Of a DNA stretch of 64,000 nt, positions 12,769 through 61,775 are shown one piece after another. The position numbers were made by a program, and so were the translations under genes. The notes beneath the pieces are model-generated. The model was given only the letters and a program-made list of their open reading frames with translations. It made no database searches and was not told where the DNA came from. The first letter of the stretch is position 1. Every line of letters starts with the position of its first letter. The stretch lies in the sequence record MN850645.1; one strand, 5' to 3'. This stretch comes from Escherichia phage outra.

Positions 12769-13374
12769 TTAACGACGACGTGAGCTACTAAAACTACGTT
12801 TCGACGAAGAATAACTTTTCGAAGACTTACTATAAGAGCTAATAGGACTTGAGTAAGACTTACGAGCAGAGTAATCACTATTCACTTTTGTTGTTGATGG
12901 GCGTGAATACGTTTGTACACTTTGCTGCTTAATTGTGTTTTGTTTAGTGGTTGTATATGTATTCCCTTGTTTATCATAAAACCTATGCTTTTGTGTTGTA
13001 TATGCTTTACTATTAGTTGTAGGAGCAGCGTTGTTATTGATAATTGTTGTATTGCTACCGCCATCTCTATAACCACCACCGCCACTATTACCACTCAACA
13101 TATGACCAAGAAGCATACCTGTAGCAAACTCACCTACGCCAGAAGAACCACTGCCGCCTCCTTGCACAACAACTGTTGAAGGTTGTGCAGGTGCTGCTTG
13201 AACAACTTGAGGTGCAGGCTGATTTACATATTGTTCATCTACCATCTGATTTGGTGTTTGTTGGTAACGTTGATTTTGTACATTTTCAGAATCATCACAA
13301 CCTACCAGCAATGCACTACCTAAAACAACTGCAACAATAAAAGATTTAATGTTTTTCATTTGTAACCCTCTCAT
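12769..13374 (-). CDS. lipoprotein with Gly-rich and S/Y/K-rich low-complexity C-terminus
   Basis: Signal peptide plus lipobox LLVGC; GGGSGSSG and SYSSPISSYSKSSKSYSSS tracts. Confidence 0.55.
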   Translation of the reverse strand: MRGLQMKNIKSFIVAVVLGSALLVGCDDSENVQNQRYQQTPNQMVDEQYVNQPAPQVVQAAPAQPSTVVVQGGGSGSSGVGEFATGMLLGHMLSGNSGGGGYRDGGSNTTIINNNAAPTTNSKAYTTQKHRFYDKQGNTYTTTKQNTIKQQSVQTYSRPSTTKVNSDYSARKSYSSPISSYSKSSKSYSSSKRSFSSSRRR

Positions 13375-19400: not shown

Positions 19401-21196
19401 AAATGTTTCTCCCTTTCTAATACCTCTTGCATTTTACCTTTATTATAAGGGCGAGAGTTAGGGGCAGACAGGTATCCTGACACTCTTCTGATTACAGATA
19501 TAGATTCTTCCTCATGATTGCCACAACTTGGACACTCGAAGCCTTTAGCTGTTGCCTTAAATTCACCATGAAAACCACATTTGAAACACTGATCTACAGG
19601 TTGGTTCACGCCAAAATAAGGAATTTTGTTGTAGGCATAATCTACAAGGGTTTCCAGTGCTTGCAAGTTATTTTTAAGGTTTGGTGTTTCTACATAGCCT
19701 ATGTTCCCACCATTACTGATTTGTGCAAAACCTTCCTCATAATCCCACTTTTGGAACGGGGTAGTGTGCATCCACACAGGTTGATGGAAAGAGTTTGTCA
19801 AGTAGTCACGATCAATAGAACCAGGATAGCGATCATTTAATGCTTTGGCAAATTTATAACACAAGGATTCTGCTGGTGTTCCATACAAACTAAAAGCTAA
19901 ACCAGAACGTTCTTTAAATGTGCCACAGATATCCTTCATATATTGAAGGATGTTTTTACCCATTGCTTTTGGATTGGTGTTACCTGGGTATAAAATCTCC
20001 ATAGCTTCTGCTAAACCTACATAACCGATACTAATAGAGGCATAACCACCTTCGAATAGCTTACCAATCTCTTCATTAGCTTCTAGTCGAGCTAAAGCCC
20101 CTTCCATAAACAATGTAGGGTTTTGAGATGCTTTGGTATGTCTAATACGGTTAACACGTAGCATATGTGCCTTATACGCCATCTCCATATGTTGTTCCAA
20201 CAGTTCAGTAAATAAGATGCCCTTTTCACGGGACTCTGCTGCAATGATAGGTAAGTTTAAAGAAACTACGCCTAAGTTGAAACGACCATCATATTTTTCA
20301 CCTTGCTCTGTTGCATAGTATGACAAGAAGCTACGGCAACCCATGCTTGTGACGCGACCATCTGAAGATCCTGTAACTTCTTTGTTTAAAGGTACAGAGA
20401 TAAAATCAGGATAAATGCGTTCAGCACAACACTCCATTGCCAGTTGCTTCAAATCATAATTTGGATCGCCAGCTTTCATGTTAACACCATCTTCCAAGAA
20501 GAAGATAACTTTAGGAAACACAGGAGTTACCCTATCTTTTCCCAATCCTTGTTTGTGCACCATTAGGTAGTTTTTAGTGATCATTCTACCAAAAGCAGAG
20601 GTATCCAAACCTAAACTAATTGTTATAAAAGGTGACTGACCATTTACACTCATTAGAGTGTTCACCTGGTAGATTAAAGTTTGCATTGCATCATAGACCT
20701 GTTTATCTACCATACGCATAGCAATATCATAATCGCCAACATCGGCATATATTTTATTAAAACTTGCTTTAACGTATTGACTAAGCCCAGTATCAACATG
20801 TGCACAAGTTTGTCCACCATATTGGCTAGAAGCTACTGCTTGAATAATTTGAGTTAGGACAGTAGTCGCTACACCGATAGATTTTGGTTTTTCAATATGT
20901 GCATTACCAATACGGAAACCGTTCTCAAGCATATCTTGGTAATTTACCAGGCAACAATTAGTTAAAGGTGAGAGTAAATAATCTAAATCGTGAATGTGAC
21001 CATACCCACTTTTATGCCATTCTGCCAGATCTTCCGGTAAAATATGGGTCATTGCCATGTGCTTGCTTAGGATACCTGCTAGTAAGTCTCGGTGAGTATT
21101 AACAATCATTGCAGGTTTGTTTGCATTTTCACGAGTAAATTCTTCGGATGTTTGTTCGAGGAATCCGATTACATCCTCATATAGTTTTTGGGTCAT
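19397..21196 (-). CDS. nrdD: anaerobic ribonucleoside-triphosphate reductase
   Basis: About 600 aa; C-terminal CFKCGF...CPSCGN zinc ribbon and glycyl-radical-type RVSGYL; start at Met with GGAGG RBS. Confidence 0.9.
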   Translation of the reverse strand: MTQKLYEDVIGFLEQTSEEFTRENANKPAMIVNTHRDLLAGILSKHMAMTHILPEDLAEWHKSGYGHIHDLDYLLSPLTNCCLVNYQDMLENGFRIGNAHIEKPKSIGVATTVLTQIIQAVASSQYGGQTCAHVDTGLSQYVKASFNKIYADVGDYDIAMRMVDKQVYDAMQTLIYQVNTLMSVNGQSPFITISLGLDTSAFGRMITKNYLMVHKQGLGKDRVTPVFPKVIFFLEDGVNMKAGDPNYDLKQLAMECCAERIYPDFISVPLNKEVTGSSDGRVTSMGCRSFLSYYATEQGEKYDGRFNLGVVSLNLPIIAAESREKGILFTELLEQHMEMAYKAHMLRVNRIRHTKASQNPTLFMEGALARLEANEEIGKLFEGGYASISIGYVGLAEAMEILYPGNTNPKAMGKNILQYMKDICGTFKERSGLAFSLYGTPAESLCYKFAKALNDRYPGSIDRDYLTNSFHQPVWMHTTPFQKWDYEEGFAQISNGGNIGYVETPNLKNNLQALETLVDYAYNKIPYFGVNQPVDQCFKCGFHGEFKATAKGFECPSCGNHEEESISVIRRVSGYLSAPNSRPYNKGKMQEVLEREKHF

Positions 21197-27740: not shown

Positions 27741-28223
27741 TTAACCACCCAATTGCAAATGTTTAGAAAGAACAATATCCCACTGATCACCACAACCATT
27801 ATCTATGCGGAACATAATGTACGTATCATCTTCTTCTACGACATATAATACCTCATAGGAATTACAACAGCCTTCCCAATTTTTAACAGCCTCTGGTGTA
27901 TGATGTGTAAGGATTTCATTACCATCATATGACCAAAACAAAGGGGTAAGGTTTTCGAAGGTCAGTGAAGTAGGGTTTACTTCATCTTTAACTGCTTCCT
28001 CATATTCTTTATGCGTTTGTACTGCTTTAGTTAGTGTACTCATGTCTATCTCCTTTTCTCCTTCTTGACTATGGAGGATAGCGAACTCTCTAAACTCCAC
28101 CTCACGCCATGTTTTCAGGTAGTGCTTTATAATTTGATCAACATCTACCTGTTCAACGTTACTTTTCAAGCAATAGTAGTCATGGTCTTCACCCATTCTA
28201 CCCCATATGCTATACATTGTCAT
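27741..28223 (-). CDS. hypothetical protein
   Basis: 160-aa ORF. Confidence 0.4.
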   Translation of the reverse strand: MTMYSIWGRMGEDHDYYCLKSNVEQVDVDQIIKHYLKTWREVEFREFAILHSQEGEKEIDMSTLTKAVQTHKEYEEAVKDEVNPTSLTFENLTPLFWSYDGNEILTHHTPEAVKNWEGCCNSYEVLYVVEEDDTYIMFRIDNGCGDQWDIVLSKHLQLGG

Positions 28224-28491
28224 CTGATTGATCCTTCACATTGTTCTTGGCATACACAGGAATAACATCATGGTGATCTTTATTACTTTCGTCTGTTAAA
28301 GCCCAAAACAACTTACCTGCCGGATGTTTAAAGATGTAAGCAATAGGTTCCTCTTCCTGTGCTTCTTTGCTACGGATGCCATCCCGCCAGGCAAGCCAAG
28401 TGTAGATCATCATCTCTTGACGTTCTTCTTCATTAGGCCACAGATGGGGTAGAAAGTTTTTATCAAACCATTGCTTAAACTCTTCAGTCAT
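28210..28491 (-). CDS. hypothetical protein
   Basis: 93-aa ORF. Confidence 0.4.
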   Translation of the reverse strand: MTEEFKQWFDKNFLPHLWPNEEERQEMMIYTWLAWRDGIRSKEAQEEEPIAYIFKHPAGKLFWALTDESNKDHHDVIPVYAKNNVKDQSDDNV

Positions 28492-28726
28492 AATCTACTC
28501 CTTAGCGTACAAAGTTAACTTCTGCTTCTTTCAGCTTTGACACTTCTACATAACCACCATGATCATCTTTAATCCATTCTTTTCCTTTTCGGATGATAAC
28601 AGGGTAGGTAGAGTGAGTAAGTTTAGGTACAGATCTTTTTGTTTTAGTGATAGAAATGTTTTGCATAGTAGTCTCCTTAGTAAATTTTACATAGAATCTA
28701 GATTATTTAGTAGGTAGAGTCAATAA

Positions 28727-28993
28727 CTAATTACTGTTAGATCTGTACTCTGTCTTCCATTCACAATGGTAAACTTCAACAGGTTCTAACTTCCAGTGTT
28801 CAGGAACTAGTTCAGGACAATATCTACAAAAGAGAAATAGATAGATAACTAAGACAGGTATTAAATAGTAAAATGGTATACGATCATAACCATACTTACG
28901 AGATAACATGTAGACATATAGATAGGGTATAACAATTAATCCTATAACTATAAGTAAGAAGAGAAGTATAAACCTTAGTGTAGTAACATCCAT
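28727..28993 (-). CDS. small membrane protein
   Basis: 88 aa, two hydrophobic helices. Confidence 0.4.
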   Translation of the reverse strand: MDVTTLRFILLFLLIVIGLIVIPYLYVYMLSRKYGYDRIPFYYLIPVLVIYLFLFCRYCPELVPEHWKLEPVEVYHCEWKTEYRSNSN

Positions 28994-29157
28994 AGTATTC
29001 TCCTATACAGTAATATACTCTGTTCCTGCCCCTCCATGAGTGACAGGAACAATATCTATAGAGAATACTAACTCGCTTCGCTCGTCACCTTTCAGGTTTA
29101 GGGTAGCATGTTTTTCTGAAAAAGTCAATACTCTCCACAAAACTTTACAAAATACTT

Positions 29158-29430
29158 TTACATAGGTACAACAGAGTCTGTTTTGAAGTCGTACATATGA
29201 TTTACACCTGTGATTTTTGACATAGAGATTGCACGTTTAGCACCTGCAATTACCTGGTCTGTCTTCTTAATCTCTTCACGGAACTTACGTACAGTTAAAG
29301 AGAAGAAACGATGATCCATCCATTGACGATTCACACGATCACGCTTGAAGTGACGGAAATCTTCAATCTGCTTATTGCGCAATCGGCGCAGTACATGCAA
29401 TAGTTGATAGTAAGGGTGTTTATTTTTCAT
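29158..29430 (-). CDS. hypothetical basic protein
   Basis: 90-aa ORF. Confidence 0.4.
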   Translation of the reverse strand: MKNKHPYYQLLHVLRRLRNKQIEDFRHFKRDRVNRQWMDHRFFSLTVRKFREEIKKTDQVIAGAKRAISMSKITGVNHMYDFKTDSVVPM

Positions 29431-29433
29431 AAA

Positions 29434-29862
29434 TTATTCTCCAAATCGAAAATCGTCAATATCATCAAACCATACACAATGGCGAGTCCTTTCTTTTTCT
29501 GTTGCAGACATTGTTTCAACAGCTTTAGGACTAAGCACAACAGGAGTGTAACGAATAGGTCGTTCATAATAGTAGCCATACTTTTCTGTATTAGCTGCCT
29601 CAAAGACTTTACGGCGTTCTTCAAGATCTTCTATGGTGAATCCTACCATATAGCCATCATATTTGCTACCCCATCCTTCCTCGCTTTCAACAATCGGGAT
29701 ATAAAAGCCGTTACGCGTCCCTAACGCTGGTTTTTCTTGAGCCTGAAGGCAAGCCTCCCATCCTGCTTTAAAGACGTTATAGAGCGATTTACGCACGTTA
29801 TGAGTGCCGCTTTCGCTTGCTGGATAGAGTTCATTAAATTTATCTTGGATTTGTTGTGTCAT
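29434..29862 (-). CDS. hypothetical protein
   Basis: 142-aa ORF. Confidence 0.45.
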   Translation of the reverse strand: MTQQIQDKFNELYPASESGTHNVRKSLYNVFKAGWEACLQAQEKPALGTRNGFYIPIVESEEGWGSKYDGYMVGFTIEDLEERRKVFEAANTEKYGYYYERPIRYTPVVLSPKAVETMSATEKERTRHCVWFDDIDDFRFGE

Positions 29863-30005
29863 ACTCGCCCCTTAGTGATTATTTGACCAGCTAAACAAAT
29901 AGCTTGTAGTACAATAAAGAAGTAGCCTAATTTTACACTACCCAATACCCAGAATGCAATGTTTGCAAACAAACAAAAAGCAATATTAAGTCTAAAGAAT
30001 AACAT

Positions 30006-30206
30006 TTAATCCCCTTCATATTTAGGTAAAGGCATATATGCCACAATAGGAGGGTAATCAAAGTGAAAATGATGGTTCACCACAATAATCTTACCAGACA
30101 TACTTTTATGCACTTCACAATACCCTTTTTCACCATCTTCCATTACCACCACATACTCACCTAGTGGGATATCGTATGGATCTTCTACTTTTACCCATTC
30201 TGTCAT
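30006..30206 (-). CDS. hypothetical protein
   Basis: 66-aa ORF. Confidence 0.35.
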   Translation of the reverse strand: MTEWVKVEDPYDIPLGEYVVVMEDGEKGYCEVHKSMSGKIIVVNHHFHFDYPPIVAYMPLPKYEGD

Positions 30207-30472
30207 TTTGGAAATACCTCTTGTCCATCTTCATGCATTTGTAGTAAAGTTTCACAGATTTCATACACATCTTGGTATGTTACAACTGAGAGATCAGATT
30301 CTTGATCTTCGACAAGCATAGCACAAAGAGCTTTAATGTCAATACCTTTACAATGTTCCGTAGCTACACGGTACATTTCACCATCCTCCCAAACAATTGG
30401 TTGCGGGAGCAAAACATCTGTACCATCTTCACAAGTTACAATGTAGTCTGCAATATTATCACGAATTTTCAT
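30203..30472 (-). CDS. hypothetical protein
   Basis: 89-aa ORF, overlapping stops/starts with neighbours. Confidence 0.35.
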   Translation of the reverse strand: MKIRDNIADYIVTCEDGTDVLLPQPIVWEDGEMYRVATEHCKGIDIKALCAMLVEDQESDLSVVTYQDVYEICETLLQMHEDGQEVFPK

Positions 30473-30726
30473 TGTACTACCCCCTTAAATCCAGATGTAC
30501 TGCCAGTTTTAACTTTTGCTTTAAGAGGTTCCAACTCTACCATAGGTGTTGCTACTTGTATAGGATTTTCCTCAACCTCATAAATATAATATTCATAATA
30601 AGCATACTTACCAATAGAGTGCAGATACTTAATTGCATGTTCAGGTGAATCTGCTTCAACATACCCCAAATCTTTTGTAGTGCGGCCTTCACAGTCGCCT
30701 TCTGTAGTTACGTGATAAAGTGTCAT
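30469..30726 (-). CDS. hypothetical protein
   Basis: 85-aa ORF. Confidence 0.35.
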   Translation of the reverse strand: MTLYHVTTEGDCEGRTTKDLGYVEADSPEHAIKYLHSIGKYAYYEYYIYEVEENPIQVATPMVELEPLKAKVKTGSTSGFKGVVQ

Positions 30727-47977: not shown

Positions 47978-48052
47978 AAATGATAATCATTCTTATTTAT
48001 AGCTGATTATTTATGCAATAAACTGCATAATGCAATAATGATAATCATTCTT
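47978..48052. promoter_or_regulatory. two Fur-box-like dyads (AATGATAATCATTCTT), 55 bp apart
   Basis: Read directly. Confidence 0.4.
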
Positions 48053-48906
48053 AACTTATGACCATCTAACCTATAAAATAATAAGCTATCTAACTAAATT
48101 AAAACTAATTATCTCACCTTTATTTATAACTTACTGTTACTATCTCATTGATAACCTTATATTAAACAACAATAACTAATATAAATCATTACTAAGCTAA
48201 ATATAATCTATCTAACCTTTAAAACTATAACTATAATCTATCGAATTGTTGCACAAAGTAACTATTAAATTGTTAGTAACATTGCTAAATAATTAATATC
48301 CTATCTATTTATGATCTAATCTTTACCTTCCTATTTATTACCTAAATAACCATTTCATATAGTAATTATTTCATACAATAACTATAACAAGAAACATAAT
48401 TCGCAAGCGTATCATTAGCAGCCTATGCCGGACACATAGGCGGCTAATAATAACGCAACTACACACCCCACATAATAACCATCACCGATAGTTATTATTT
48501 GTGCTTATGTAGCTTGCAACAATTGCAAGCGCAACAATATACTAAGGTATATTGTATCCCTTACATTGTTGCGGTGCGTTATTATTAGCTAATGTTTAGA
48601 ACATTGGCTATAATATAAGCTGCATATAATAAGCTATTCAATAATAAACATCGTGAATAATGACATTGATGATCATAATGCGCCACCCTCCAGGGGGCGC
48701 TATGTGAACACAAAGAAATCTTTCTTATCAAGAAAATATTATCACTATTGCGCAAAATTATTTACATCTGAATAGATGATTTTTCATACTATTATTGTTA
48801 TTTGTTGAGCATAGTTATAGCCTATTTGTTGAGCCTACTTTCTTAAAAGCGCAATAAATCAGAATTATCTTGATTTTTAGTGCGTTTTATAGTATAGAAA
48901 ATATGC

Positions 48907-48923
48907 AAATGATAATCATTATC
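48907..48923. promoter_or_regulatory. near-perfect Fur-box-like site (AAATGATAATCATTATC) just downstream of a TTGATT-N17-TATAGA promoter-like element
   Basis: 15-nt identity with positions 5-19 of the E. coli Fur consensus GATAATGATAATCATTATC. Confidence 0.45.
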
Positions 48924-49480
48924 AGCTATCTTCCACGGGTAGCACTATTTCACGCCAGATCATTTCATTTGGCAAGGTGTATATAGATGTTTAGACTTGC
49001 CAAGTTATTGATTTACTTAGAATTTATCTATTTTGTTGTGAGTAGTACCTTTCTTGCTTAGAAAATAATCAAAAGTCTTATAAGTCATTGAATGATAATA
49101 CAAATGATAATTATTCTCATTGATATTTGAGGGGGACGGTCGGCAGAAATCGGGGGGTGCTGAAAATCGCGTTAAGCACCTCTCGCAAGCGAGCAGTATT
49201 TTGCGGCAAGTTATTGATATTATTGGCTTTACGCTTATGAAAAGGGGGTGTGTCGAAATAAAGCGGGTATACCGGAAAATTTTTGTGGCATAGATATTTA
49301 TTTGTCTATATTATGTACAAAGGGGTGTGTTAAAAATATTAGGTATATATAGAATAATTGATAGGGAAATCCTATACTAATCCCTCCATTAATGATGTTT
49401 CTATGTTACTGTTCTTGTAATAGATGAAAAGACGCTGTATGATGTGTGGCATGAAACGTAAACTTATAAAGGAGTCTGAT

Positions 49481-57669: not shown

Positions 57670-57876
57670 GAGTAGTAAGTAAGGTATAAAGAGTATATAG
57701 TTAGTTATAGAGTTAGTAACATTACATATACTCTTTCCATGTATAACATGGAATATTCTCTACCTCGCTATCGCTCGGTATATAAGATTAGGGTAGCATG
57801 TTTTTTACGAAAAGTAAAACTGTTTATACCGATTGATAGCAGGTTTTTAATAGATTCTATCTATGAGGAGTAGAAA

Positions 57877-61360: not shown

Positions 61361-61390
61361 AAACCCGCTTCGGCGGGTTTTCTTGTATGT
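61361..61390 (+). terminator. Rho-independent terminator (near-identical copy of the one at 34619)
   Basis: aaacccgcttcggcgggttttcttgtat. Confidence 0.7.
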
Positions 61391-61740: not shown

Positions 61741-61775
61741 AAAGCCCCTAGAAGCGATTCTAGGGGCTTTTGTTT
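61741..61775 (+). terminator. Rho-independent terminator at convergent strand switch
   Basis: aaagcccctagaagcgattctaggggcttttgtttg. Confidence 0.65.

What the first reader, a model, noticed from the sequence alone, without database searches (positions are those of the whole stretch)
29005..29124. Conserved intergenic element of about 65-90 nt present twice in the same orientation (29005-29124 and 57720-57815)
Both copies share ATATACTCT ... GAATA(C/T)T ... CTCGCT..CGCTCG ... TTAGGGTAGCATGTTTTT ... GAAAAGT. The first lies inside the minus-strand block, the second in the plus-strand operon, yet both are in plus orientation. Candidate functions are a small RNA gene, a phage-specific (non-sigma70) promoter or a protein-binding site; at 29100 a plus-oriented promoter would give RNA antisense to 29158..29430.
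Basis: seen in the sequence. Interest (0 to 1): 0.5.

Follow-up and report, generated by a model that had tools for sequence, protein, structure and literature searches.

The report
Minus-strand promoter with conserved leader mini-hairpin
The repeated intergenic element is real and most likely a host-type (sigma-70) promoter on the opposite strand from the one proposed, followed by a small conserved hairpin; there are three copies per phi92-like phage genome, one of which fires antisense into the early genes.

Summary
An exact 18-mer, TTAGGGTAGCATGTTTTT, and a ~70-nt module occur at 29064-29135 and 57756-57825.

The window is a phi92-like coliphage (Justusliebigvirus). A covariance model finds exactly three copies in the genome; the third lies outside the window, in the opposite orientation. 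phAPEC8 has three syntenic copies.

Read on the minus strand, the conserved blocks are TTGACT/TTTACT, a 17-bp spacer, TGC-TACCCT (a sigma-70 extended -10 promoter), and 11-15 nt later CGAGC-[GAA|GATA|GCA|GGGA]-GCGAG. That box is a GCGNAGC/GCGNNAGC mini-hairpin with tandem G·A pairs. Its flanking pairs covary and use G·U, so the structure fits only that strand.

- **Copy 1** is an internal promoter with a ~100-nt leader for the minus-strand gene that starts at 28993.
- **Copy 2** points against the plus-strand early block, so it would give a non-coding antisense RNA.
- **Copy 3** heads the prs/tRNA block.

The same promoter-plus-box module recurs in unrelated phage contigs and at tRNA/rRNA operon promoters of some bacteria.

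There was no Rfam match, no plus-strand sigma-70 promoter, no conserved ORF and no boxA. The hairpin's function is inferred, not shown: either a 5' RNA structure or a non-template DNA mini-hairpin that primes an origin.

The parts
29123..29128 (-). Copy 1: -35 hexamer TTGACT
   Evidence: One search gives an exact match to TTGACW-N14-TGNTANNNT at 29100-29128 on the minus strand. The TTGAC is conserved in homologues.
29100..29108 (-). Copy 1: extended -10, TGC-TACCCT, 17 bp after the -35
   Evidence: TG and TACCCTA are invariant in 16 homologues. The -10 matches TATAAT at only 3 of 6 positions, so the simple scan did not list it.
29093..29093 (-). Copy 1: predicted transcription start, the G seven nt after the -10 (inferred, not mapped)
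   Evidence: Inferred from the usual -10-to-start distance of E. coli RNA polymerase (own knowledge). It lies in the loop of the small palindrome CCTGAAAGG (29088-29096).
29069..29087 (-). Copy 1: box hairpin UGA-CGAGC-GAA-GCGAG-UUA (core GCGAAGC mini-hairpin, tandem G·A, 3 outer pairs)
   Evidence: fold it as ((((..((...))..)))). One search shows the outer pairs covary. The motif definition is from PMC13037366.
29022..29050 (-). Copy 1: second hairpin, variable in sequence between homologues (GTTCCTG...CAGGAAC)
   Evidence: A hairpin is present at this relative position in all homologues, but with a different sequence in each.
28991..29003 (-). Copy 1: Shine-Dalgarno GGAG and the ATG of the downstream 88-aa membrane-like gene (28727-28993). 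The leader is ~100 nt.
   Evidence: The orthologous gene follows the copy-1-type element in Klebsiella phage KP13-26.
57813..57818 (-). Copy 2: -35 hexamer TTTACT
   Evidence: One search matches 57790-57818 on the minus strand with one mismatch. KP13-26 copy 2 has the same hexamer; Tr1 has TTGATT and phAPEC8 TTGACT.
57790..57798 (-). Copy 2: extended -10, TGC-TACCCT, 17 bp after the -35
57761..57780 (-). Copy 2: box hairpin UAC-CGAGC-GAUA-GCGAG-GUA (core GCGATAGC)
   Evidence: -7.9 kcal/mol as RNA, z -3.9, against -4.9 for the plus-strand version. Covariation.
57735..57753 (-). Copy 2: second hairpin (TTCCATGT-TAT-ACATGGAA). On the plus strand it looks like a weak terminator for the upstream plus-strand genes.
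57670..57734 (-). Copy 2: downstream tract that is G-poor on the transcribed (minus) strand, AT-rich and repeat-rich (ACTAACT x2; inverted repeat AAGAGTATAT 57689-57698 / ATATACTCTT 57726-57735). There is no ORF on this strand.
   Evidence: Comparable AT-rich repeat tracts follow copy-2-type elements in KP13-26 and Tr1 and follow the module in other phage contigs.

Best explanation
The element is a promoter-leader cassette that reads on the minus strand of the window.

Host RNA polymerase with sigma-70 would bind TTGACT/TTTACT, a 17-bp spacer and TGC-TACCCT, and start about 7 nt downstream. The first ~25 transcribed nucleotides carry a conserved mini-hairpin, C-GA-GC[G-N1-2-A]GC-GA-G, closed by 1-4 covarying outer pairs. 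A second hairpin of variable sequence follows.

- **Copy 1** is an internal promoter with a ~100-nt 5' UTR for the minus-strand gene at 28993 and the replication-gene block behind it.
- **Copy 2** fires against the plus-strand early block, about 3.9 kb before that block ends. It would make an untranslated antisense transcript.
- **Copy 3**, outside the window, heads the prs/NAD/tRNA block.

The hairpin most likely forms at the 5' end of the nascent RNA. There it could protect or insulate the 5' end and keep an untranslated leader structured.

Shown here: sequence conservation, synteny, strand-specific covariation, and recurrence of the module at bona fide stable-RNA promoters. Inferred: promoter activity, the start site, and what the hairpin does.
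For: **1. Promoter reading.**
- The conserved blocks line up as -35, a 17-bp spacer (18 bp in three copies), TGn and TAnnnT in all 16 distinct homologues.
- The spacer sequence can change completely (L008) while the hexamers stay.

**2. Copy number and synteny.**
- Model R1 finds exactly three copies in the ESCO8-type genome and three syntenic copies in phAPEC8.
- One copy is co-oriented with genes, one is antisense near the distal end of the early block, and one sits at a divergent junction before the tRNA cluster.

**3. Hairpin, on this strand only.**
- The half-sites CGAGC/GCGAG are invariant. The loop varies in sequence and length (GAA, GCA, GATA, GGGA), and the flanking pairs covary.
- Columns 57-72 are CG in 12 and AU in 4. 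Columns 55-74 are UA in 7, UG in 6 and CG in 3. No shuffle out of 500 reaches the observed score, and slid controls fall to 26-43% paired against 86%.
- In 54 distinct promoter-plus-box instances the outer pairs are WC 106, G·T 33 and A·C 12.

**4. Wider recurrence.**
- The pattern TTGAY-N15-TGnTAnnnT-N7-17-CGAGC-N3-4-GCGAG hits 37 viral loci. With a G..A loop it hits 24 bacterial-genome loci. My rough hand estimates of chance are about 6 and about 4.
- The unconstrained sixth base of the -35 is A in most of the viral-contig hits outside this phage group; over all 54 distinct instances the -35 is TTGACA in 29 and TTGACT in 18.
- Bacterial hits sit directly upstream of tRNA arrays in Cetobacterium and of a 16S rRNA gene in an Oscillospiraceae genome.

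**5. Local context.** Sigma-70 extended -10-like sites are enriched in the window (19 against 5.3 expected), mostly on the coding strand, so host-polymerase promoters are the norm here.

**6. Conservation.** The copy-1 gap is 100% identical in most of 55 genomes, while the flanking 2.5 kb is 97.7-99% identical.
Against: - No transcript data exist, so the promoter and start site are in silico only.
- The -10 TACCCT matches TATAAT at 3 of 6 positions, and the tool's simple sigma-70 scan did not list either site.
- Nearest-neighbour energies of the box hairpin are modest: -3.5, -7.9 and -5.8 kcal/mol as RNA, with z -1.5, -3.9 and -0.5. They are weaker still with DNA parameters.
- Copy 2 has no gene to express, and no terminator follows it.
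- Tetraloops GATA, GCTA and GCCA are not RNA GNRA loops, but they fit the DNA mini-hairpin rule GCGNNAGC.
- In some unrelated phages the 5' arm of the outer stem lies upstream of the expected start (L170, L173, L154). Small palindromes span the predicted start in this family. Both hint at a DNA-level structure.
- The wider-distribution searches required a promoter in the pattern, so they are partly circular. The bare box 15-mers are common in viral contigs without any sigma-70 promoter: 0 of 238 have one.
Confidence: 0.6

Rival explanations
1. Promoter-coupled DNA mini-hairpin acting as a replication origin or priming signal. Transcription from the sigma-70 promoter opens the duplex. The displaced non-template strand, which has the same sequence as the RNA, folds into the GCGNAGC mini-hairpin and its neighbouring hairpins. 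That stabilises an R-loop or offers a loading or priming site in front of an AT-rich, repeat-rich tract. The precedents are T4 oriF/oriG, ColE1 ssiA, and the G4 and RSF1010 ssi signals. Three per genome would mean three origins.
For: - The box core is exactly the 'mini-hairpin DNA' consensus GCGNAGC/GCGNNAGC. Kimoto and Hirao report this motif at G4, St-1 and alpha3 origins, at RSF1010 ssiA and at N4 early promoters, and note that its stability escapes standard thermodynamic parameters.
- Non-GNRA loops (GATA, GCTA, GCCA) fit DNA better than RNA.
- Palindromes overlap the predicted start, and in some phages the outer stems begin upstream of it.
- Copy 2 has no gene to serve but is conserved across genera while its neighbouring genes change.
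- AT-rich repeat tracts follow copies 2 and 3 and follow the module in other phages.
- The phiX174 F-G intergenic region, which I recall (own knowledge) holds the primosome assembly site, contains AAGCGAAGCGCGG.
- From memory, the exact 13-mer CGAGCGCAGCGAG lies on the displaced strand near the pBR322/pUC ssiA. One search shows only that this 13-mer occurs in papers that, judging by their titles, are unrelated to phage biology; I did not open them.
Against: - The same box follows tRNA and rRNA operon promoters in bacteria, which are not origins.
- GC skew follows gene direction only and does not switch at copy 1 or copy 2.
- The RNA made at copy 2 would be pyrimidine-rich and G-poor, which disfavours a stable R-loop (own knowledge).
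- The nascent RNA can form the same hairpin, and that competes with R-loop formation.
- G·T pairs are frequent in the outer stems, which is more typical of RNA.
- DNA folding parameters give almost no stability, although the review says such parameters fail for this motif.
Confidence: 0.2
2. An antitermination leader of the rrn type or lambda-nut type. The hairpin would be a boxB analogue placed just after a strong promoter. It would recruit Nus factors or a phage N-like protein, making RNA polymerase resistant to Rho on untranslated or long transcripts: the tRNA block, the replication block and the antisense RNA.
For: - The architecture parallels E. coli rrnB P2: TTGACT, then TATTAT, then ~10 nt, then a hairpin containing GCGAAGC, then boxA TGCTCTTTAACAA.
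- In an Oscillospiraceae rrn leader the box is followed after ~14 nt by TCCTTGAAAA, which resembles the Gram-positive boxA as I recall it, and the 16S gene starts ~210 nt later.
- Copy 3 heads the phage tRNA cluster.
Against: - The E. coli boxA core GCTCTTTA is not enriched in the 45 nt after the hairpin. The best match in copy 1 has 2 mismatches, a level reached by 26% of random windows. The mean background fraction over 64 instances is 0.69.
- The Cetobacterium tRNA leaders have the box but no boxA.
- No N-like protein was identified (not searched).
Confidence: 0.08
3. The element works on the plus strand, either as a phage-specific promoter (box CTCGCT(A)TCGCTCG as an activator site at about -30, TAGGGT as the -10) or as a plus-strand small RNA.
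For: - TAGGGTA is a symmetric TAnnnTA, so a -10-like hexamer exists on both strands (read directly from the sequence).
- In copy-2-type sites, and in L112, L123 and L124, a plus-oriented gene follows within 15-90 nt.
- The box-to-TAGGGT spacing of 10-15 nt is not far from the spacing I recall for MotA-type middle promoters.
Against: - There is no -35 and no TG on the plus strand.
- The box cannot fold on the plus strand: it gives T·C and C·T mismatches, and copy 1 folds at 0 kcal/mol.
- The 33:12 excess of G·T over A·C favours the other strand.
- A change in loop length of 3 to 4 nt between the two TCGCT repeats is awkward for a protein that reads two half-sites.
- There is no Rfam match and no conserved plus-strand structure.
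- In copy 1 a plus-strand transcript would have no target gene.
Confidence: 0.06
4. The box is a DNA operator. A phage or host DNA-binding protein would bind the direct or mirror repeat AGCGA-N0-2-AGCGA just downstream of the start and repress or time the three promoters.
For: - The 10 box bases are invariant across genera while everything around them drifts.
- The position at +5 to +25 is typical for repressor operators (own knowledge).
- Having three co-regulated promoters per genome would make sense.
Against: - The spacing between the two repeats varies from 3 to 4 nt.
- Flanking bases covary as base pairs, which a duplex-binding protein does not require.
- The same box occurs in unrelated phages and in bacteria of different phyla, where a shared DNA-binding protein is unlikely.
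Confidence: 0.05
5. A short plus-strand ORF (41-44 aa, ...RVACF..KV..) explains the conservation.
For: - Plus-strand ORFs 29040-29165 and 57739-57873 cover the two copies.
- Several GenBank records annotate such ORFs, for example phAPEC8_0059.
Against: - Across 15 homologues the frame through RVA(C/Y)F is open for only 15-29 aa in six.
- It has no start codon in three.
- Upstream of the core the frame shifts, because the loop (3 or 4 nt) and the spacer (10-15 nt) vary by non-multiples of 3.
Confidence: 0.01

Closest known systems
Sigma-70 extended -10 (TGn) early promoters of lytic coliphages (33 predicted in rV5, 11 of them extended -10; PMC3606486)
   Same: A -35 of TTGACT/TTGACA, a 17-bp spacer, TG one base upstream of a TAnnnT hexamer, use of the host polymerase, and a location in early or replication gene blocks.
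   Different: The -10 interior is CCC (TACCCT) and is strictly conserved. The promoter is welded to a conserved downstream hairpin. There are only three copies per genome, and one has no gene to serve. Neither the phi92 nor the phAPEC8 record annotates a promoter here.
PeSL (promoter-early stem-loop) cassettes of T4-like phages (PMC2839356, PMC4122927)
   Same: A repeated intergenic composite of a sigma-70-like promoter and a stem-loop in regions of small early ORFs.
   Different: In PeSLs the stem-loop lies just upstream of the promoter, the cassette ends with the SD and start codon of a co-oriented gene, and there are many copies that mark indel sites. Here the conserved hairpin is downstream of the promoter, there are three syntenic copies, and one is antisense.
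rrn P2 leader (boxB hairpin then boxA) and lambda nut sites
   Same: A strong promoter followed within ~10 nt of the start by a short hairpin. E. coli rrnB P2 boxB even contains GCGAAGC. The box occupies the boxB position in a Clostridial rrn leader.
   Different: No boxA-like element follows in the phage copies. The hairpin sequence differs from E. coli and lambda boxB. No N-type protein is known for these phages.
Mini-hairpin DNA motifs GCGNAGC/GCGNNAGC at replication and transcription initiation sites: G4, St-1 and alpha3 complementary-strand origins, RSF1010 ssiA, and N4 virion-RNAP early promoters (Kimoto and Hirao 2026, PMC13037366)
   Same: The box core is exactly this motif: GCGAAGC, GCGCAGC, GCGATAGC or GCGGGAGC. 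It sits at an initiation region. Like the three N4 early hairpin promoters (three is from my own recollection), there are three per genome.
   Different: Here the motif is extended by tandem G·A pairs (CGAGC...GCGAG). It sits downstream of an ordinary double-stranded sigma-70 promoter rather than forming the promoter or the primase site itself. No virion RNA polymerase is annotated in this genome.
Promoter-dependent origins (T4 oriF/oriG; ColE1 RNA II with ssiA) - from my own knowledge plus PMC3167613 for ssiA
   Same: A promoter plus a downstream element on the displaced strand and an AT-rich tract. A promoter can sit where it serves no gene.
   Different: No replication data exist, and there is no GC-skew signal. 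The phage encodes its own polymerase and helicase, so dependence on PriA is not expected.
5'-terminal stabiliser stem-loops of bacterial and phage mRNAs (the ompA 5' UTR type) - own knowledge
   Same: A stable hairpin within a few nucleotides of the 5' end of the transcript.
   Different: Those stabilisers are not conserved in sequence between genes. Here 10 bases are invariant across genera and recur in other phyla.

Membership tests
Sigma-70 extended -10 promoter | -35 hexamer close to TTGACA | tested here: met
   TTGACT in copy 1, TTTACT in copy 2 and TTGACA in copy 3. Over 54 instances: TTGACA 29, TTGACT 18.
Sigma-70 extended -10 promoter | 17 +/- 1 bp spacer and TG one base upstream of the -10 | tested here: met
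   17 bp in both window copies. TG is invariant in 16 homologues. The spacer is 18 bp in L008, L074 and L150.
Sigma-70 extended -10 promoter | -10 hexamer close to TATAAT | tested here: inconclusive
   TACCCT keeps T1, A2 and T6 but matches only 3 of 6, below the threshold of the tool's scan. Unrelated phages carry TATAAT, TACAAT or TAAGCT at the same distance from the box.
Sigma-70 extended -10 promoter | Transcription start and dependence on sigma-70 holoenzyme | not testable with these tools
   Needs 5'-end mapping or in vitro transcription.
Any Rfam RNA family | Covariance-model match | tested here: not met
   No hit at gathering thresholds over the whole window. Only chance-level hits at E up to 10 around both copies.
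Mini-hairpin motif GCGNAGC/GCGNNAGC | The sequence GCG-N1-2-AGC with a closing C-G pair and a sheared G·A pair | tested here: met
   GCGAAGC (29075-29081 on the minus strand), GCGATAGC in copy 2 and GCGCAGC in copy 3. All 16 family members fit. The definition is from PMC13037366.
Mini-hairpin motif GCGNAGC/GCGNNAGC | Exceptional stability | tested here: inconclusive
   Nearest-neighbour models give only -3.5 to -7.9 kcal/mol as RNA and 0 to -2.9 as DNA. The review states that such parameters do not capture this motif.
PeSL cassette (T4-like phages) | Stem-loop upstream of the promoter; SD and start of a co-oriented gene downstream; many copies at indel sites | tested here: not met
   The conserved hairpin is downstream of the promoter. 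There are three copies only. Copy 2 is antisense.
rrn / lambda nut antitermination site | boxA (GCTCTTTA-like) next to the hairpin | tested here: not met
   No enrichment over background in 64 instances.
rrn / lambda nut antitermination site | Promoter-proximal hairpin in the boxB position | tested here: met
   The position matches E. coli rrnB P2 and a Clostridial rrn leader. The sequence is not that of lambda or E. coli boxB.
Intrinsic terminator | GC-rich hairpin followed by a U-tract on the transcribed strand | tested here: not met
   None on the minus strand at either copy. Only the plus-strand reading of copy 2's second hairpin is weakly terminator-like.
phiX174-type primosome assembly site / ssi signal | Hairpins on the displaced single strand that are recognised by PriA or a primase | not testable with these tools
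   There is only a resemblance. The phiX174 F-G gap holds AAGCGAAGCGCGG. The pBR322 13-mer identity is recalled from memory, and GC skew is uninformative.
N4-type hairpin promoter | A virion RNA polymerase gene in the genome | tested here: not met
   No RNA polymerase appears among the annotated products of the ESCO8 stretches read, about 126 of 149 kb. This was checked by annotation only, and record ~86.1-111.0 kb (window ~1-25000) was not viewed.
Protein-coding small ORF | A conserved open frame with a start codon | tested here: not met
   The frame is broken, lacks a start or is shifted in most homologues.

The most novel reading that the evidence does not exclude
The cassette is a compact, transcription-activated replication-initiation or primosome-loading module. 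A sigma-70 promoter would expose a strand-specific DNA mini-hairpin (GCGNAGC flanked by tandem G·A) on the non-template strand in front of an AT-rich repeat tract. There would be three such origins per Stephanstirmvirinae genome. The same module would be spread among many uncultured phages. Copy 2 would then be an origin promoter with no coding role.
Probability: 0.15. Interest if true: 0.75.

Novelty: new variant of a known kind. Interest (0 to 1): 0.45.

Why it matters
**Annotation.** Nothing is annotated at these sites in phi92, phAPEC8 or ESCO8. Several records instead call spurious ORFs across them.

**Transcription map.** Recognising them as three fixed, strand-defined host-type promoters gives a first transcription map for a phage group used in therapy and in defence-system research. 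It also predicts a conserved antisense transcript at the distal end of the early block. That transcript could act in early-gene shut-off or make a non-coding RNA.

**The hairpin.** The promoter-proximal CGAGC-GNA-GCGAG hairpin also turns up in unrelated phages and at tRNA and rRNA promoters of Fusobacteria, Clostridia and CPR bacteria. This suggests a general accessory to very strong promoters that has not been described, or alternatively an origin-type DNA signal. Either reading can be tested directly with 5'-end mapping and a few mutants.

Tried and rejected
- **Rfam.** Scans at gathering and permissive thresholds found nothing. There are no tRNA or tmRNA genes in the window.
- **Plus-strand sigma-70 promoter.** No -35 and no TG (sequence).
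- **'All copies point the same way', as for an oriented origin or packaging signal.** Rejected by copy 3.
- **Plus-strand micro-ORF.** Rejected.
- **boxA / Nus-type antitermination.** No enrichment.
- **Terminator reading.** No U-tract on the transcribed strand. Only 11 of 238 box occurrences in viral contigs have T-rich tails, against 10 on the other strand.
- **GC-skew test for an origin.** Skew only follows gene direction.
- **Linkage of copy 2 to a particular neighbouring gene.** Neighbours differ between genera.
- **Identifying the uncultured phages that carry the module.** BLAST against cultured phages gave no match.
- **Non-circular test with bare box 15-mers.** None of 238 has a sigma-70 promoter upstream, and only ~20% sit in longer hairpins against 5% of controls. 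The box alone is therefore not diagnostic.
- **Literature.** Full-text searches found no transcriptomic or promoter study of Stephanstirmvirinae. The phi92 genome paper is not held. No relevant paper was found by searching for the box sequence.
- **MAFFT alignment of the two copies.** It misaligned the left halves, so the blocks were aligned by eye and then with 16 homologues.
Full report
**What is there.** Both copies exist as described.
- The 18-mer TTAGGGTAGCATGTTTTT is exact at 29098-29115 and 57788-57805. It has no other match in the window at up to 3 mismatches, where 0.15 are expected by chance.
- The window is the reverse complement of a phi92-like coliphage. It is identical to Escherichia phage vB_EcoM_ESCO8 over 28000-30500 (Justusliebigvirus, Stephanstirmvirinae). 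A 37-bp offset elsewhere in the window shows it is not the same record throughout.
- Copy 1 lies in a 164-nt gap between minus-strand genes. It is 2.4 kb inside the minus block that diverges from the plus block at ~31.4 kb.
- Copy 2 lies in a 207-nt gap inside the ~30-kb plus-strand block of small early genes, 3.9 kb before the convergent junction at ~61.6 kb.

**Reading the element.** Homologues from Phapecoctavirus (phAPEC8), from the Klebsiella phage KP13-26, from Citrobacter phage Tr1 and from metagenomes were collected. They show which bases matter.

On the minus strand the invariant blocks are:
- TTGAC(T), with variants TTTACT and TTGATT;
- a 17-bp spacer (18 bp in three copies);
- TG-N-TACCCTA;
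- after 11-15 variable bases, CGAGC-loop-GCGAG.

The first three blocks are the textbook layout of a sigma-70 extended -10 promoter (my knowledge of the consensus). The window copies match TTGACW-N14-TGNTANNNT with 0 and 1 mismatch. In L008 the spacer sequence is entirely different but the hexamers and TG are kept, as expected for a promoter. The -10 TACCCT keeps T1, A2 and T6 but is only 3 of 6 to TATAAT, which is why the tool's simple scan missed it.

On the plus strand there is no -35 (CGCTAT at the right distance) and no TG.

**The box is a hairpin on that same strand.** CGAGC-N3-4-GCGAG pairs C-G, G·A, A·G, G-C, C-G around loops GAA, GCA, GATA or GGGA.
- Its core is GCGNAGC/GCGNNAGC. This is the 'mini-hairpin' motif of Hirao and colleagues. 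They report it at replication and transcription initiation sites and say its stability is not captured by standard parameters.
- The bases flanking the box covary as pairs. Columns 57-72 are CG in 12 and AU in 4. Columns 55-74 are UA in 7, UG in 6 and CG in 3.
- 86% of cells are paired, against 26-43% when the partner column is slid. No shuffle out of 500 reaches the observed covariation.
- Over 54 distinct promoter-plus-box instances the four outer positions are WC 106, G·T 33 and A·C 12. The structure therefore belongs to the strand that reads CGAGC...GCGAG.
- Predicted energies are modest: -3.5, -7.9 and -5.8 kcal/mol as RNA, against 0, -4.9 and -4.9 for the complement. They are weaker with DNA parameters.
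- A second hairpin follows in every homologue but with unrelated sequence.

**Copy number and context.** A covariance model of the 71-position module finds exactly three copies in the ESCO8-type genome.
- They are the two window copies and one at record 13075-13147. The next-best hit scores 15.6 bits against 65-77.
- Copy 3 lies in the 457-nt divergent gap in front of prs, the NAD-salvage genes and the tRNA cluster. It points the other way.
- phAPEC8 has three syntenic copies. One is co-oriented with genes at 134.5 kb. One is antisense at 20.4 kb, 3.4 kb before the end of its early block. One sits in the divergent gap before the tRNA cluster.
- KP13-26 and Tr1 show the same copy-1 and copy-2 arrangements.
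- The copy-1-type element is followed after ~100 nt by the SD and ATG of an orthologous small membrane-like protein in ESCO8 and KP13-26.
- The genes on either side of copy 2 are not conserved between genera, and there is no ORF on its transcribed strand.
- Downstream of copy 2 on that strand is a G-poor, AT-rich tract with short repeats.

**Beyond this phage group.**
- A pattern requiring a consensus extended -10 promoter, then 7-17 nt, then the box, hits 37 viral loci. My rough hand estimate of chance is about 6.
- Outside this phage group most of these hits have TTGACA, although the sixth base was unconstrained. Their -10s include TATAAT, TACAAT, TAAGCT and TACGCT, and they have their own compensatory outer stems, for example GTTCTGC/GTAGAAC.
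- They typically sit at a divergent junction, followed by a 130-300-nt AT-rich, repeat-rich leader before the first gene.
- With a G..A loop the pattern hits 24 loci in bacterial genomes (about 4 expected by hand).
- Apart from prophage-like and mis-binned phage contigs, these bacterial hits are promoters directly upstream of tRNA arrays in Cetobacterium and of a 16S rRNA gene in an Oscillospiraceae genome. Similar leaders occur at contig ends in other Clostridia and in CPR bacteria.
- Caveats: these searches demanded a promoter, so they are partly circular. The bare box 15-mers are common in IMG/VR, with no sigma-70 promoter upstream in 238 occurrences. About 20% of those lie in longer hairpins, against 5% of controls.

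**Alternatives tested.**
- Rfam gives nothing.
- The plus-strand micro-ORFs (41-44 aa) are not conserved as frames.
- An rrn- or nut-like antitermination site is attractive. E. coli rrnB P2 has the same layout, with a hairpin containing GCGAAGC followed by boxA. However, a boxA core is not enriched after the phage hairpins.
- PeSL cassettes of T4-like phages have the stem-loop upstream of the promoter, occur in many copies and are always co-oriented with genes.
- An origin or priming role for a non-template-strand DNA mini-hairpin remains open. In its favour are the exact match to the DNA motif, the non-GNRA tetraloops, palindromes that overlap the predicted start, the gene-less copy 2 and the AT-rich repeats. 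Against it are the bacterial tRNA and rRNA promoters that carry the same box and the absence of any GC-skew signal.

**Mechanism, with status.**
- Shown: a strongly conserved three-copy cassette; a sigma-70 extended -10 layout on the minus strand; a strand-specific covarying hairpin 11-15 nt after the -10; synteny across genera; the same module at genuine stable-RNA promoters.
- Inferred: that host RNA polymerase starts near 29093 and 57783. Also inferred: that copy 1 drives the gene at 28993 and the genes behind it, and that copy 2 makes an untranslated antisense RNA, probably limited by Rho because of its G-poor tail.
- Also inferred: that the hairpin acts at the 5' end of the RNA. It may also act, or act instead, as a DNA mini-hairpin on the displaced strand.

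**Verdict.** It is a new variant of a known kind. The open points are the conserved antisense copy and the cross-phylum hairpin.

Noticed in passing
window 47979-49335 (ORF-poor stretch ~48000-49420): A ~1.4-kb stretch without long ORFs carries four copies of AATGATAATCATT(C/A)T(T/C)A (47979, 48037, 48908, 49103). The segment 48905-48923, GCAAATGATAATCATTATC, matches 17 of 19 positions of the E. coli Fur-box consensus as I remember it. Four G-rich repeats, AAGGGGGTGTGTCGAAA, lie at 49149-49335. phAPEC8 has a comparable gene-free gap and the rV5 paper draws a 'non-coding' box. These could be iterons or an origin, or Fur-binding sites.
   Followed up: partly
ESCO8 record 13075-13147 (L022), outside the window: A third copy of the element sits in the 457-nt divergent gap before the prs, NAD-salvage and tRNA genes. 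Its orientation is opposite to the two window copies. Its leader contains two AGATCTA(A/T)C repeats with GATC sites, which also occur in the phAPEC8 and Klebsiella-phage copy-3 leaders.
   Followed up: partly
window 29040-29165 and 57739-57873 (+); phAPEC8 20383-20502: Short plus-strand ORFs run across the element and are annotated as hypothetical proteins in several GenBank records (for example phAPEC8_0059). The frame is not conserved among homologues, so these are probably mis-annotations.
   Followed up: yes
whole window: Sites matching TTGACW-N14-TGNTANNNT with at most 1 mismatch number 19, against 5.3 expected. They lie mostly on the local coding strand (for example 43358, 44733, 46960, 50795, 51775, 57153 and 59046 on the plus strand). 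This is consistent with many host-type promoters inside the early block.
   Followed up: no
window 61361-61380 and 61741-61770: Two perfect, GC-rich hairpins with T-tracts on both strands (bidirectional terminators) mark the convergent junction at the end of the plus-strand early block.
   Followed up: no
window 29054-29072 with 29122-29140 (minus strand): In copy 1 only, the region upstream of and including the -35 (GGAGAGUAUUGACUU) can pair with the region just after the box (GAGUUAGUAUUCUCU) through G·U pairs. The 136-nt minus-strand fold has z = -4.2. This pairing was not seen in KP13-26, so it is probably lineage-specific or due to chance.
   Followed up: partly
L152 (IMG/VR 3300003886_000013), L168, L154: Some uncultured phages carry two modules or two boxes in tandem. 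In L152 the promoter and two boxes are followed by a run of 16-nt purine-only tandem repeats, AGAAATAAGAAGAAAG.
   Followed up: no
box-bearing promoters in many loci: Non-consensus -10 hexamers of the form TAnnCT preceded by TG recur among promoters that carry the box: TACCCT, TAAGCT, TACGCT, TACACT and TAAACT. This may be a promoter subclass.
   Followed up: no
window versus OM386653.1: The window is collinear with ESCO8, but the coordinate sum differs by 37 bp between the copy-1 and copy-2 regions (111093 against 111130). The window therefore carries an indel relative to that record, or comes from a near-identical phage.
   Followed up: no
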